From the human T2T-CHM13v2.0 reference genome, Homo sapiens: a DNA stretch of 64,000 bases. A program made the translations under genes and the position numbers. Of this stretch, positions 53,106-61,853 are shown piece after piece. The DNA lies in assembly GCF_009914755.1 (NCBI RefSeq), contig NC_060933.1, one strand, 5' to 3'. The stretch's first letter is position 1; each line of letters opens with the position of its first letter. The notes beneath the pieces are model-generated. The model was not told the origin of the DNA. It did not search any database and saw nothing but the letters and a program-made list of their open reading frames with translations.

Positions 53106-55146
53106 CCTCTTGCACTTTTCTCAGACTTGTAAGTGTGACACTGGGATGACCAGTTCATGGGGAGAATTTTATATTCTTTACAGGTGAATTGGCTACAACC
53201 ACAGGCAATTTCAATTTCTTTCCAAATTTCTTCAGGGGAATATCTGAAGAAAAATAAAGTGCTTTTGAAATATAAACACTTTCTAGGAATAAAGGAATGT
53301 TGCTTATACATGATTTTACCAATGGTGTCATGAAAATTGTGTGGAGGACTGTGGCTATAAACACAATGGTTTGAATTTTATGTAAATTCATAGCTTTTTA
53401 TTGTTATTTTTAAATACAGAAAAGTTCTGAAGATAGTAATTTTATTTGCCAGTTTTTTGGAAACTTTATATCTGAGGAAGATCTGCTGGAAGATGTCATT
53501 TGGGGTAATGCAAAATATTTCTGGAAGACACAAGTAAAATGGGCCCTCATTGACCAAGTAGTTTGTATAGATGTAGTGATTAAACTATTAAGTAGAGGGG
53601 AGGTTGCAAAAATATTTGACAAAATGAAATGTGTGCCTGCAGTGCAAAACCACTGATCCTGCTCACAAACAGGCATAGTGAGAAAGATTTCTATATGCCT
53701 GGTAGAACAACCTCTGTGGGCCATCTTAAGCACTGGTGATTAACACTTTTATGCATTCTATTACATCTGAATTCCACGACTTAACATGATACTTAAGCTG
53801 AATTAAAATGCCTTAATACTCTTGCCTCAATATTCTTCCAAGGTTTAGCACCTGGTCCTTTTAATAAAAAAAAAAAAAAATAGGTTATGGTTACCTTTTT
53901 TTGAAAAGGTACTCAAATATGTCAACTTTATTGTTTCTAGATATACACCCCTTTGTACTGAAAATTGTAAAAATAGCATGAAGTTTCCTCTTATTGCAAT
54001 CCAAATTTTTGAAAGCCAGAAAATCTAATTATTATGCTCTAGACAACTTACCTAATGCTTTCTTTATCCACAAGTAACTTTGCTTCAATTTCTTGATGTT
54101 GGGTTTCATCTCACTGACTTTGGGCTTCTAAATGGGAATATTTACGTCCTCTTCGCTTCTTTGGTTCAAATCAAACAGTAGAGCTAAAGTTATTCAAATA
54201 CATTCAAACTACACAGACCCCTTATAAATTACTAGTATCATGGTAGGAAGGAAAATATATAAGAAGAAAAATACATCCTGGAACTCATTATCAAAATTAT
54301 TGGTGTATAGTCTATACTAGCATAGAGTAGCTTTCTCAACCTGCTATGTAAAATTGCCAGCAAGAAAAAAAAGTGCAAGAATAAGGTCTATGACTGAAGT
54401 GGCTCGGTGTCATGATTCCCTATTCTAGCATTCTCAGAAGGATCCCACCCGTTAGACATGCAGAAACTGCAGCCCATCCAAATGTGATCTGTTTAATCAA
54501 TAATCAACAGTTCATATTGAAGACAGTATTTTTGCTATATGTGCTTGTCATAATGAAGGACGGTGTACAAAGAACAAGTTGAACCAGACGAACACTTTAA
54601 TTTTGATGCCAAAATCAATCACTTTTTGTCATAACACCAGGCATAGATAATGGTTGATCCAGTGCACACTGTCTGTATTACCCCATAATTTCCTGCAGCA
54701 GACATGTTATAATTTGACATACTCCTTGATCATTAACACATTGCAGTAGTCAGATATACTTGTCAAGATTAAGCTAAATGTCAGTAGAAGACTCAGTGAA
54801 GGCTTGGAAATCTTGCAGCTTGCTCTCAGAGACACTGCCAACTGAAATGATAAATGTCATTGGGCTGTGGTACTATTCTCATCGACGTATCAATAAATAA
54901 AGGGATGCTGGCGAAAAAATGTTCTTCCAGATACCTGCCCACTCTGAACCTAGAGTTCTTTTCATCACTGTGAAAGACAGCTCCCTACACACCGCAGCCA
55001 TTTCCTGGGAGGACTCTGAGCTGTGATTTTAATAACAGAATGCACTCATCTGTCATTTTTCTTCCAGAATTGCTTGTGAATATCCTGCATGCTATCCAAG
55101 TCTCTCCACCCTTGTAGTCTTTGTATAAATGGGTTCATTTTGTTCC

Positions 55147-55438
55147 TTTTAATTTTTTTGAGACAGAGTCTCACTCTGTGGCCCAGGCTGGTGTGCATTG
55201 GCGCTATCTGGGCTCACTGCAACCTCCGCCTCCCAGGTTCAAGCTCTTCTGCCTCAGCTTCCTGAGTAGCTGGGATTACAGGCGCGCACCAACACGCCTG
55301 GCTAGTTTTTATATTTTCAGTAGAGACGGGGTTTTGCCGTGTTGGCCAGGCTGGTCTTGAGCTCCTGGCCTCAAGCGATCCACTCGCCTCGGCCTCCCAA
55401 ACTGCTGGGATTACAGGCTTGAGCCACTGCGCCCGGCC
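55147..55438 (-). mobile_element. Alu
   Basis: Antisense Alu. Confidence 0.95.
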
Positions 55439-55671
55439 CCTTTGTTCTTATTTGTTGTTATTGCAGTGGGATTCTAGGAGGTGCTGGGAGTGGAGAAGTT
55501 AATCAACATATTTAGCTAGCTTGAATAGACATCCCAGTATTGATGGAGTTGCAATCTTAAAAAAAGAAAGAAAGAAAGGGAAACAAAAGCCCAACAGTCA
55601 TGGGATGAAAAAGTATTTGGGCGAGGATGAAAGAGTCAAACTCTCACTGTGCACGTGAAATCACAAGTATG

Positions 55672-55983
55672 GGCCGGGCGCAGTGGCTCACGCCTGTAAT
55701 CCCAGCACTTTGGGAGGCGGGTGGATCGTGGGGTCAAGAGATCGAGACCATCTTGGCTAACACGGTGAAACCCCGTCTCTACTAAAAAAAAAAATACAAA
55801 AAATTAGCCGGGCATGGTGGCGGGCGCCTGTAGTCCCAGCTACTCGGGAGACTGTGGCAGGAGAATGGCGTGAACCTGGGAGGCGGAGCTTGCAGTGAGC
55901 TGAGATGGCGCCACTGCACTCCAGCCTGGGCAACAAGGCAAGACTCCATCTCAGAAAAAAAAAAAAGAAAGAAAGAAAAAGAA
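55672..55983 (+). mobile_element. Alu (Y-like)
   Basis: TSD gaaatcacaagta. Confidence 0.95.
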
Positions 55984-58818: not shown

Positions 58819-59701
58819 TGCTGAAAGTTTTTATCATGAATGATTGTTAGATATTGTCAAATTCTTTTTATGCATCTATTGATAAGATTACATGATTTTT
58901 CTTCTTTAACCCATTGGTATAATGGACCGATCTTTGACTGTTGAACTAGGCTTGCATTCTGGAGTGCATCCCACTTTGTTATGGTATATAATACTTTCCT
59001 TGTTTCTTTTTTAAACTATTGTATTTATTATTTTTAACACTTTTTCACAACTTCAATGACAATCAAATAAGCCACCTCCTGTGTTGCGTTTCTGTGTGCT
59101 GCTTGAAGCTGCCTGTGCTTACTTTTGGTTCTACATAGCTTCTCCCCTTAGAATGACATACATAGTACAGCATTCAACATATGCTAACTCTTAGTGTTGT
59201 TATTATCTGAAGACCCTCAAGGACTGCTCATGGTGCTGATGTGGTTGGAGGGGGCATGACTTGAACCATGTCTTGTAACTTTGCATGAATTATTTACACA
59301 TGCTTGAGACAAGGTTAGTTTTCTGCATCAAAGAATGAGCAGGGAGATGATAAAGAGGTGGCTAGCTCCATCCTGTTCCAGCTATGGTCATTGCTGACGT
59401 GCACTTTGCATACACACGCTCATCCAAGTTGCATACTGCACTCAATCAGACTCAGGTGTGAAAGAGAGGTAGGAAAGAGGGACATGGGCCCACTTTCAGC
59501 TCTGGTTTATTCAGCTGTTATCACTGCTCTGTATGAGGATTGAAATGAAATCCTCAGCTAATACTGAACTGGAAGGAGCAGCCTGTGTGTGGTGAAGAGA
59601 TAAAACCTAAAACAGTCTTAACAGAAACAAAGCACTTTTCCAAACTAAGAAGAGGGCGATAAATGTAGTTTGACACTTTAGTTTAAAAATACACAAATTT
59701 A

Positions 59702-60007
59702 GGCCGGGCGTGGTGGCTCACACCTGTAATCTCAGCACTTTGGGAGGCCGAGGTAGGAAGATCACGAGGTCAGCAGTTCGAGACCAGCCTGCCTGGCCAA
59801 TATGGTGAAACTCTGTCTCTACTAAAAATACAAAAATTAGCTGGGCGTGGTGGTGTGCACCTGTGCTCCCAGCTACTCGGGAGGCTGAGGGAGAAGATTC
59901 GCTTGAACCCAGGAGGCGGGGCTGCAGTGAGCCGAGATTGTGCCACTGCACTCCAGCCTGGGTGACAGAGTGAGACTCCATCTCAAAAAACAAACAAACA
60001 AAAAAAA
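59702..60007 (+). mobile_element. Alu
   Basis: Alu consensus. Confidence 0.95.
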
Positions 60008-61853
60008 CCCCACAAATATTAGAATAATGCCTGTGAAACAAAAGTGACCTGAGTTTATGTCCCTGTGGCCTTGACAAAAGCCTGTGGTATGATGAGGTCA
60101 CCTCATATCTTAGTGAATTTGAAGGGAGTGAGGTCTCTCCTGCCCCCAGCTTCAGACCACACTGAAGAGCTTGATCCCAGTTCCAGCCATTGGATATTCA
60201 GTAAGATGTCAATAAATCAGAGTTTGTCAAGAGAAGGAGGGTGAAGGGCCTTCTACCCTGACATGCCAGGTCTCAGACAGAGAGGAAGGCGTTAGTTGCA
60301 GGAGAGAGAAAACTCAGGCATGAGCAGGATGGTCAACTTTAAATTCTACAGCTCCCTCCCATGGAGGAGACATTAGACTCACACTAAGAAGATAGGTCTG
60401 TAATTGGTGGATGGGGCTGCAGGAAGCTGTACCACAGACAAAAAGAATTCAGGAATGAGGATTCTCAAAAATGAATGTGTTTTCTCTCAAAGAATGTATG
60501 ACAGTGTATTCATACAGTGATTCTCTGTTATCTATAGAAGTCTAAATTCCATAAGAAGTTCAGAAAGTCCTTTCTTCCTCACTTCCTGCCTGTAAGCCAG
60601 TTTCATCTCCCAGACACACTCTGCCATCCTGTGTGCCCTGAGTCATAGCCCCTCTGCACTAACTATGCTTCTCCCAAAAACAGCATACTCCTTTCACCTT
60701 CCTGCCTCTGCCCACGACTTCCTCTTGGTCTGGAATGCCCCCAACAGTTCAGCTCTTAAAGCTCATATACGCTCAGGCCATAGTTGAAAATATGTATATC
60801 CTTGTTTATTCTCAACAGTTCCAATAAAAATCCACCTCCCCTTTGAAGTCTTCATGACTGCTATACTTTAACCTCCAAAGCAAAGTTAGATACCCCATGA
60901 TCTGTGCTCCCATGACACCCATCCACTTCGATTATGGCATGTTCCACATTCTAATTATTTGCTTACTGTCTCCTCTAGTTGACTTTGAGCAGACACCTTG
61001 TCTTATTCATGTCTGCATCTGAAGAGTTTTCACACAGGGCTCACACCACAATGGGTGAATGAGCACTCAGAGAGGAATCTGTACCCACGTGAAGGCATGG
61101 ACCCTTCAGCACTAAGCTTCTGTGATCTCATAACATCTTGCCTTAATATTCTTCCAAGGTTTAGCACCTGATCCTTTTAAACACGTTCGTTAATAAACAA
61201 TAAATAGGCTATGGTTAACTTTTAAATAACTAGTTAATCTTTATTATGAAATAAGAATTTTGGAAGAGGCGAAGTGATCTATATACATGGGACGGAGGAA
61301 AGTGAATATCAATGGCCTATGACGCATCATTAAGTTTCTTTTCTATTTCATAGAATTTTCTACTCACATTACTGTCTTATTCAGTGTTCTTTTGTTTGGT
61401 GTTGAACCAGCGCAAAATCTCTGAGGTTAAAATGGAATTATTCTAAAGGCTGGAAGCCTGGTAGCTTCAAGAGCTAGAACCAAAGTCTGGAAAGAGCTCC
61501 AGGAACAGCTCCAGCTACCCTAAGTAAATCTCTCCCAGGCGCTCTGATCGCTTTTCACAACTTCTCTCTCCACATCACTTCAGCTTTTCTTTCCACAGAT
61601 CGACTATGTCTGCTTTTCTAAGCTGCTGGTTAAATATGGAAGCACCAACGATCCCAAACTTAAATATTCTAAGTTGAAATGACCCATAGGGAAAGACCAG
61701 TATCTCTCAATCCCAATTCCCACATTTTAAAGAGAAAATGTGGTTGGGTCAGTTGTTCTACCTTTAAATAAATAGGGTCAGGTATGGGACATGATTCCAT
61801 AACACAAACATGGCAGGCAGGGCTCACCATTGTGGGGTCAGTCTTCAGATAAA

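What the first reader, a model, noticed from the sequence alone, without database searches (positions are those of the whole stretch)
53820..61225. 7.2-kb retro-insertion flanked by an ~80-88-bp direct repeat: a giant target-site duplication?
Seen: two non-repeat copies, tcttgcct(c/t)aatattcttccaaggtttagcacctg(g/a)tccttttaa...tagg(t/c)tatggtta(c/a)ctttt, at 53820-53899 and 61136-61223. The left copy runs straight into a T-tract (53896-53902), a minus-strand poly(A) located 24 nt after AATAAA (53927-53932). The right copy ends TTTT followed by AA, the canonical L1 endonuclease nick 5'-TTTT/AA. This is exactly the geometry of target-primed reverse transcription (established), but ordinary TSDs are ~7-20 bp. 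The cargo is not a spliced mRNA. It holds old L1/L2-like repeats, a strong acceptor (ctttctttctttctttttttaag at 55556-55580, minus) and a ~1.35-kb unique terminal exon with a decayed coding-like start (..[52 protein letters not shown]). Inference: a partially processed pre-mRNA (last intron + last exon) or an orphan 3' transduction, ~5.3 kb before later Alu insertions, from a source gene I could not identify.
Basis: partly seen in the sequence, partly recalled or inferred. Interest (0 to 1): 0.8.

Follow-up and report, generated by a model that had tools for sequence, protein, structure and literature searches.

The report
DPPA3 retrocopy with displaced 88-bp target repeat
The 88-bp repeat is real and marks a LINE-1-driven insertion of a fragment of the germ-line gene DPPA3 (STELLA), but the 6.7 kb between the two copies is single-copy genomic DNA with no source elsewhere, so this is an unusual integration scar and not a giant retro-copied pre-mRNA.

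Summary
The repeat is confirmed: 53820-53899 matches 61136-61223 at 71/88 positions, with sharp edges. In T2T-CHM13 it occurs only in four chr9 segmental-duplication paralogs, twice in each, so it is not an interspersed repeat.

The AATAAA and A7 "tail" belong to a 572-bp, 5'-truncated processed copy of DPPA3/STELLA mRNA (53903-54474, minus strand). It starts 31 nt inside exon 4 and ends at the poly(A) site. It has no local target-site duplication (TSD). The only match to its 3' flank is the right repeat copy 6.66 kb away, whose outer edge is a perfect L1 nick site (TTTT/AA). Target-primed reverse transcription is therefore supported.

The cargo reading is not supported. The 6.66 kb between (54475-61135) has no DPPA3 intron or exon. 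It consists of six Alus, an old repeat and about 3 kb of unique DNA, and no second copy exists anywhere in the genome.

Two models remain:
- **Resident DNA (about 0.4).** The 6.66 kb was already there, and the priming-site DNA plus cDNA was cut off as a flap and re-inserted nearby.
- **True TSD (about 0.3).** The 88 bp is a real TSD and a cut-out DNA fragment was captured at the break.

An outgroup primate ortholog would decide between them. All four paralogs carry the structure.

The parts
53820..53899 (-). Left copy (R2) of the 88-bp repeat. It lies directly 3' of the retrocopy's A-run on the minus strand. Its A-rich middle is a pure A13-16 run in all four paralogs.
53896..53902 (-). A7 run (T7 on the plus strand). 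It merges the mRNA's own terminal A-run, the remnant of the tail, and the AAAA that starts the repeat.
   Evidence: other DPPA3 retrocopies also keep only 5-12 A
53903..54474 (-). 5'-truncated DPPA3/STELLA processed-pseudogene fragment, matching cDNA positions about 492-1060. It encodes the last 26-27 residues and carries the 3' UTR, with AATAAA at 53927-53932. It is 89.6-90% identical to the parent exon 4 with gaps counted, and 92% by substitutions only.
54475..61135 (.). X: 6,661 bp between the retrocopy's truncated end and the right repeat copy. It contains six Alus (55134-55432 -, 55678-55977 +, 56499-56784 -, 57950-58262 -, 58504-58807 -, 59713-60005 +). It also contains an old high-copy repeat (56823-57933 and 58846 to about 59000) and about 3 kb of single-copy DNA. 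There is no DPPA3 homology and no second copy in the genome.
61136..61223 (-). Right copy (R1) of the repeat. On the minus strand it begins AAAAGTTAACC and is preceded by TTATTT.
61220..61225 (+). TTTT/AA, a consensus L1 endonuclease nick site at the outer edge of R1. It is the inferred priming site for reverse transcription of the DPPA3 mRNA.
   Evidence: The consensus is as stated in PMC11702581 and in the cleavage-site tables of PMC5223499.
53810..53837 (+). 14-nt imperfect tandem repeat (GCCTTAATACTCTT / GCCTTAATATTCTT in 3 of 4 paralogs) that spans the junction between the left flank and R2.

Best explanation
[quoted passage not shown] It was primed from the TTTT/AA nick that now borders the right repeat copy (61223/61224). 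The 88-bp repeat is the DNA next to that nick, now present twice. This much is well supported (about 0.85). For the 6.66 kb in between, I favour that it was already resident next to the nick, in the ancestral order right flank - R - X - left flank. On this reading the nicked strand's last 88 nt, together with the attached cDNA (a 3' flap of about 665 nt), was cut off and re-inserted at a second break 6.66 kb away on the same chromosome. The gap at the original site was then refilled from the intact strand. That gives R1-X-[DPPA3 piece-A7-R2], with X single-copy and no source locus needed. The flap step is an inference and has not been shown.
For: - **The tail-bearing piece is DPPA3 mRNA.** It matches 25+ loci, including a 4-exon gene at C12:7.73 Mb and its processed copies. 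The chr14 copy's ORF hits PF15549 PGC7/Stella/Dppa3 at E 6.6e-27. The window piece encodes the C-terminus at 22/26 identity.
- **The homology has RNA-like ends.** It ends at the mRNA's poly(A) site and starts 31 nt inside exon 4, with no intron or other exon nearby.
- **There is no local TSD.** The longest word shared between the 3' flank and the DNA beside the truncated end is 6 nt, the chance median in 2000 random pieces. A canonical family member has a TSD of about 15 bp.
- **The repeat is tied to the retrocopy.** The 3' flank recurs only at R1, starting exactly at AAAA after TTATTT.
- **X has no other copy in T2T-CHM13**.
- **Ages agree.** The DPPA3-piece branch is 0.042 substitutions per site. 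R1 and R2 differ at 3 of 65 positions in majority ancestral states.
- **Precedent.** Pieces of target DNA (35 and 258 bp) attached to polyadenylated cDNA were found re-inserted elsewhere and interpreted as cleaved TPRT flaps in L1-expressing cells (PMC11702581, passages read).
Against: - A 14-nt tandem repeat spans the left-flank/R2 junction, which fits those two being natively contiguous, that is a true TSD. Empirically the likelihood ratio is only about 2.3: 174 of 58,031 native positions vs 475 of 363,847 random junctions. The window's own R2 fails the test (8/10); the other 3 paralogs give 9/10.
- Flap re-insertion is known only from L1-overexpressing cultured cells.
- The model needs a second break 6.66 kb away.
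- The cut 88 nt upstream of the nick is not at an L1 endonuclease motif.
- No outgroup genome could be examined, so neither ancestral order has been seen.
- No old repeat spans any junction that could serve as a surrogate.
Confidence: 0.4

Rival explanations
1. True 88-bp target-site duplication with captured DNA. TPRT of the DPPA3 mRNA occurred at an ancestral site ordered right flank - R - left flank, with the second-strand break 88 nt away. Before the two ends were rejoined, a 6.66-kb double-stranded DNA fragment cut out from elsewhere (possibly nearby) was ligated between the truncated cDNA and the reciprocal end. Cut-and-paste leaves no source copy.
For: - The geometry is exactly that of a TSD.
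- Long TSDs are documented. More than 100 bp occurs in up to 10% of HeLa events, 54-217 bp and up to kilobases in NER-deficient cells (PMC5223499, tables and text read).
- Genomic fragments tethered into L1 insertion junctions are described (PMC11702581).
- The 14-nt tandem repeat across the left-flank/R2 junction mildly favours native contiguity.
- X being single-copy fits a cut-and-paste origin.
Against: - It needs three breaks plus an unusually long TSD.
- Captured fragments reported so far are short (tens to hundreds of bp), not 6.7 kb.
- No deletion scar can be pointed to.
- X's ends carry no L1 endonuclease motifs.
Confidence: 0.3
2. One reading: the whole 7.2 kb was one RNA, or two RNAs joined by template switching, reverse-transcribed in one TPRT event. 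One version is a read-through transcript of a locus that already held a truncated DPPA3 retrocopy and used its AATAAA. On this reading the source locus has since been lost.
For: - TPRT geometry and a polyadenylated end.
- Two-RNA chimeric insertions and lost source alleles are described in the literature (PMC11702581; PMC13174262, passages).
Against: - No source exists. All unique parts of X hit only the four chr9 paralogs, and a copy about 90% identical would have ranked first in each search.
- No DPPA3 retrocopy is closer to this one than the parent lineage: best 92% by substitutions only (the 89-90% figures are the same matches with gaps counted), so no 'D0' survives.
- X is not DPPA3 intron.
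- The claimed splice acceptor is an A-rich run read backwards.
- The source would have to have lost at least 6.7 kb that includes an ancient repeat.
Confidence: 0.12
3. Unrelated events: the two 88-bp copies come from an older local duplication or gene conversion, and the DPPA3 retrocopy happened to insert beside one of them.
For: The region lies in duplication-rich pericentromeric chr9 (and the hub annotation).
Against: - The repeat boundary coincides to the nucleotide with the end of the retrocopy's A-run.
- The other copy's matching boundary is a TTTT/AA site.
- The retrocopy has no TSD of its own.
- There is no other non-Alu direct repeat in 52000-63000.
Confidence: 0.05

Closest known systems
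Canonical L1-mediated DPPA3 processed pseudogenes (e.g. the full-length copy at C14:30.56 Mb)
   Same: Same parent mRNA, same 3' end at the poly(A) site with a short A-run, and insertion at an A/T-rich site.
   Different: The chr14 copy is full length with a TSD of about 15 bp directly flanking it. Here the copy is truncated to 572 nt, and the matching target sequence is 88 bp long and sits 6.66 kb from the truncated end.
L1 insertions with very long TSDs (Servant et al. 2017, PMC5223499; Gilbert 2002/2005 and Symer 2002 as cited there)
   Same: Target duplications of 54 bp to several kb flank TPRT products at TTTT/a-type sites.
   Different: In those cases the duplicated target directly flanks the insert on both sides. 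Here either 6.66 kb of extra DNA lies inside the duplication, or, if R+X were the duplicated unit, X is missing from the second copy: there is no second X.
Cleaved TPRT flaps and genomic fragments in complex L1 junctions (Mendez-Dorantes et al. 2024, PMC11702581)
   Same: Short pieces of target DNA joined to polyadenylated cDNA were found away from the nick site, and genomic fragments were tethered at L1-induced breaks.
   Different: Those are somatic events in L1-overexpressing cell clones, inserted on other chromosomes. This would be a germ-line, fixed event, in cis and in the same orientation, later multiplied by segmental duplication.
Chimeric retrocopies, 5' transductions and template-switch chimeras (PMC13174262; PMC11702581 section 7)
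   Same: A non-parent sequence is fused 5' of a polyadenylated retro-copied piece inside one pair of repeats.
   Different: Known chimeras have 11-17-bp TSDs and an identifiable source RNA or gene for the 5' part. Here the 5' part is 6.66 kb of Alu-rich genomic DNA with no source.

Membership tests
L1-mediated processed pseudogene (retrocopy) | Homology to the parent is confined to mature mRNA and ends at the poly(A) site | tested here: met
   The match to gene region L019 covers only 7640-8206 of exon 4 (7609-8206). It stops at the A-run, while the gene continues with unrelated sequence. No intron homology was found.
L1-mediated processed pseudogene (retrocopy) | Loss of introns across exon junctions | tested here: inconclusive
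   The fragment lies wholly within exon 4, so no exon junction is present.
L1-mediated processed pseudogene (retrocopy) | Poly(A) tail | tested here: met
   Only A7 remains. Other family members keep 5-12 A.
L1-mediated processed pseudogene (retrocopy) | Short TSD (about 7-20 bp) directly flanking the insert | tested here: not met
   The longest shared word beside the truncated end is 6 nt, which is chance level. The only match is the 88-bp copy 6.66 kb away.
L1-mediated processed pseudogene (retrocopy) | L1 endonuclease consensus at the priming site | tested here: met
   TTTT/AA lies at 61220-61225 on the plus strand, at the outer edge of R1.
Single 7.2-kb retro-copied RNA (pre-mRNA, or orphan 3' transduction) with a giant TSD | A source locus with the same sequence order | tested here: not met
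   Only the four chr9 paralogs match, and each has both repeat copies.
Single 7.2-kb retro-copied RNA (pre-mRNA, or orphan 3' transduction) with a giant TSD | The upstream part is the last intron of the gene that supplies the last exon | tested here: not met
   8.6 kb of the DPPA3 gene region compared with 53000-62000 gave only the exon-4 piece and Alu-Alu hits.
Single 7.2-kb retro-copied RNA (pre-mRNA, or orphan 3' transduction) with a giant TSD | An empty site with one repeat copy in an outgroup | not testable with these tools
   No primate genomes are held, and no empty-site paralog exists in T2T-CHM13.
Interspersed repeat or LTR pair | The 80-88-bp unit, or longer terminal repeats, recur genome-wide | tested here: not met
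   There are 8 genomic places, which are 4 paralogs with 2 each. No homology extends beyond 88 bp.
Very large TSD or tandem duplication (R+X, 6.75 kb) | X is present on both sides of the retrocopy | tested here: not met
   No non-Alu direct repeat other than R occurs in 52000-63000. X is single-copy per paralog.

The most novel reading that the evidence does not exclude
A germ-line, fixed relic of an aborted TPRT. The primer strand (88 nt of target DNA) with 572 nt of DPPA3 cDNA attached was excised as a flap and re-integrated 6.66 kb away in cis. The priming site was left intact, producing a 'TSD' whose two copies bracket resident DNA. This would be the first evolutionary example of a flap-relocation outcome so far seen only in L1-overexpressing cells. 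It would also mean that some retrocopies scored as lacking a TSD have their target copy kilobases away.
Probability: 0.4. Interest if true: 0.6.

Novelty: new member of a known kind. Interest (0 to 1): 0.42.

Why it matters
Non-canonical outcomes of L1 integration (long duplications, captured fragments, relocated flaps) have been seen mainly in engineered cell lines. This locus is a natural, fixed case, tens of millions of years old, that primate alignments could resolve cleanly. If the intervening DNA is resident, pipelines that search for TSDs only next to retrocopies miss a class of events. If the DNA was captured, this is a germ-line insertional translocation mediated by an L1-induced break. 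It also adds an apparently unannotated DPPA3 pseudogene fragment, present in four chr9 duplicons, to a gene family often confounded by pseudogene expression in stem-cell work.

Tried and rejected
- **LTR pair or provirus.** No homology extends beyond 88 bp, and the right end of X is unique.
- **First guess that the 570-bp multi-copy piece was an L1 3' end or a solo LTR.** This was rejected when copies aligned to a 4-exon gene and the ORF hit PGC7/Stella.
- **DNA-level DPPA3 paralog with introns.** No other exon or intron homology was found by blastn or tblastx.
- **Tandem duplication of R+X, with or without partial deletion.** The left flank has no homology to any part of X.
- **Ancestral order A-X-R-B.** This predicts R next to the truncated end, which is not seen.
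- **Surrogate empty site from an old repeat spanning a junction.** The flanks near the junctions are single-copy.
- **GC content of X vs the flanks.** It does not discriminate: 0.26-0.45 vs 0.32-0.40.
- **Pfam on stop-free frames in X.** Nothing scored above threshold, so my recollection that the old repeat at 56823-57933 is L1-derived stays untested.
- **One 6.66-kb genome search.** It was swamped by Alu hits (37,438 candidates, 40 scored), so I repeated it in pieces.
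Full report
**Observation.**
- BLASTN of 1.2 kb around each copy gives a single significant alignment, 53820-53899 vs 61136-61223. 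It has 71/88 identities and one 8-nt gap, with E 1e-17 to 2e-20. The next best hit is 19 nt.
- The homology stops sharply on both sides.
- A 26-nt core occurs exactly twice in the window, against 0 in 100 shuffles.
- Against the whole T2T-CHM13 assembly, a 161-nt query around the right copy finds 8 places (8 candidates, all scored). These are four chr9 paralogs (43.77, 78.73, 41.21 and 39.40 Mb), each with a right and a left copy about 7.3 kb apart.
- The unit is therefore not an interspersed repeat. The structure predates the segmental duplications, and no empty-site paralog exists in this genome.
- Majority states of the four paralogs differ at 1 of 45 and 2 of 20 positions outside the A-rich middle. 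The middle is 23 mixed A-rich bases in the right copy and a pure A13-16 run in the left copy.

**What carries the poly(A) signal.**
- A genome search with 53903-55125 showed that only its first 570 nt are multi-copy. They match 25+ loci at 71-90% identity (39 matches from 32 candidates, all scored).
- The other copies share further upstream sequence with each other and end in short A-runs followed by unrelated DNA.
- One full copy on chr14 aligns at 98-99% to four blocks (179, 250, 43 and 598 nt) of a gene region at C12:7.726-7.732 Mb. It is therefore a processed copy of a 4-exon gene.
- Its 159-aa ORF matches Pfam PF15549 PGC7/Stella/Dppa3 at E 6.6e-27. That this gene is DPPA3 at 12p13.31 also agrees with my recollection of its position.
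- The window piece (53903-54474, minus strand) matches cDNA positions 492-1060 at 90%, starting 31 nt inside exon 4. It encodes the last 26 residues at 22/26 identity.
- No other DPPA3 exon or intron is present anywhere in 53000-62000 by blastn or tblastx; all other hits are Alu-Alu.
- AATAAA at 53927-53932 and the A7 run are therefore the 3' end of a 5'-truncated DPPA3 processed pseudogene.
- On a maximum-likelihood tree it branches from the parent lineage before three younger retrocopies and after five older ones. Its terminal branch is 0.042 substitutions per site, against 0.049 on the parent side.
- With recalled primate rates of 1-1.5e-9 per site per year, this is roughly 30-40 My. The R1/R2 difference of 3/65 is compatible with that age within its wide error.

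**Link between retrocopy and repeat.**
- A canonical family member (chr14) has a TSD of about 15 bp directly flanking it.
- The window copy has none. The longest word shared between its 3' flank and the DNA beside its truncated end is 6 nt, the chance median in 2000 random pieces.
- The only sequence matching its 3' flank is the right copy 6.66 kb away. On the retrocopy's strand that copy begins AAAA and is preceded by TTATTT, which is TTTT/AA on the nicked strand. This is the L1 endonuclease consensus as given in PMC11702581 and in the cleavage-site tables of PMC5223499.
- The repeat boundary coincides to the nucleotide with the end of the A-run on one side and with a nick consensus on the other. 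I take this as good evidence (about 0.85) that one TPRT event made both the retrocopy and the duplication.

**The 6.66 kb in between (X, 54475-61135).**
- X holds six Alus in both orientations.
- It holds an old high-copy repeat at 56823-57933 (8,188 first-look candidates, 40 scored; best non-paralog 74%) that continues at 58846 to about 59000.
- It holds about 3 kb that matches nothing except the four paralogs:
  - 54475-55125;
  - 55986-56481, apart from a simple repeat;
  - about 59000-59681 (40 of 360 candidates scored);
  - 60010-61135 (4 candidates).
- The whole X is 98% identical among the paralogs.
- A source diverged for the same time would be about 90% identical and would have ranked first. 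None exists.
- No DPPA3 copy is closer than 92% to this one, so no precursor retrocopy survives.
- The six Alus differ by 5.1-10.0% at non-CpG sites from a crude majority consensus of the window's 34 Alus. Four of them exceed 8%, about twice the retrocopy's own branch.
- 'Later Alu insertions' is therefore doubtful, with the caveat that a mixed-subfamily consensus inflates these values.
No coding evidence was found.

**Mechanism.** RNA-cargo models (read-through pre-mRNA, transduction, template switch) all predict an extant source and need an extra loss of at least 6.7 kb. I give them about 0.12. Two models explain a single-copy X.
- **(a) X was resident.** The nicked strand's last 88 nt plus the cDNA was released as a flap and re-inserted at a break 6.66 kb away, and the gap at the nick was refilled. 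This reproduces the order and orientation exactly. Its experimental precedent is target pieces of 35 and 258 bp attached to polyadenylated cDNA, found elsewhere and interpreted as cleaved flaps (PMC11702581; passages read).
- **(b) The 88 bp is a true TSD.** A cut-out 6.66-kb DNA fragment was ligated between the cDNA end and the reciprocal end. Long TSDs are documented (PMC5223499), and so is fragment tethering (PMC11702581).

A 14-nt tandem repeat spans the left-flank/R2 junction and mildly favours (b). Such a match occurs at 0.30% of native positions against 0.13% of random junctions, a ratio of about 2.3, and it holds only with the state seen in 3 of 4 paralogs. Model (b) needs three breaks, a rare TSD length and an unusually large captured piece. 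Model (a) needs one extra break. I put (a) at about 0.40 and (b) at about 0.30. GC content does not separate them, and no old repeat spans a junction.

**Comparison and novelty.** The element is a member of the L1-mediated processed-pseudogene class by its 3' end, tail and nick site. It fails the 'short flanking TSD' feature. It fails every testable feature of a single retro-copied 7.2-kb RNA. Its unusual target-site structure falls within the range of non-canonical L1 outcomes described in cell culture, so I rate it a new member of a known kind. It is moderately interesting as a natural, fixed example.

**Limits.**
- No primate genomes, RepeatMasker or Dfam were available.
- I saw the supplementary figures S9 and S10 of PMC11702581 only through the main text.
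- Of the papers, I read the outline, sections 7, 9 and 13 and found passages of PMC11702581, and found passages only of PMC5223499 and PMC13174262.
- Whether this DPPA3 fragment is already annotated as a pseudogene elsewhere was not checked beyond the hub's RefSeq table, which lists none here. One literature search had no locus-specific result in its listing.

Noticed in passing
genome loci; L009-L017, L020-L022: DPPA3 has at least 25 retrocopy loci in T2T-CHM13, in clear age classes: about 1%, 2% and 5% from the parent, then 13-19%. The older class carries six extra nucleotides (two codons) just upstream of the CSFC motif that the modern gene lacks.
   Followed up: partly
window 61178-61183: A second perfect TTTT/AA site lies inside the right repeat copy, just before the A-rich middle that is replaced by a pure A-run in the left copy. 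Whether this is linked to that difference is unexplained.
   Followed up: no
window 61183-61190 vs paralogs (L002-L004): The window's right copy reads CACGTTCG where the other three paralogs read CACATTTG. These are two paralog-specific changes within 4 nt, and both create CpG.
   Followed up: no
window 52560-63000 vs C9:39.40, 41.21, 78.73 Mb: Paralog identity is uneven: the right flank 61224-61836 is 99-100% identical, the left flank 99%, and X 97-98%. This could reflect gene conversion or rate differences among the chr9 duplicons.
   Followed up: no
window 52560-53040: An old interspersed repeat of about 480 bp (1,771 first-look candidates, 40 scored, 68-73% identity) lies in the left flank. 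Its family was not identified.
   Followed up: no
C3:196587758-196588449 and C10:74120166-74121037, C20:60897316-60898131: Several DPPA3 retrocopies are split at about the same cDNA position (around 170-190 of the 570-nt piece) by gaps of about 300 bp, the size of an Alu. I did not check whether these are Alu insertions at a shared hotspot.
   Followed up: no
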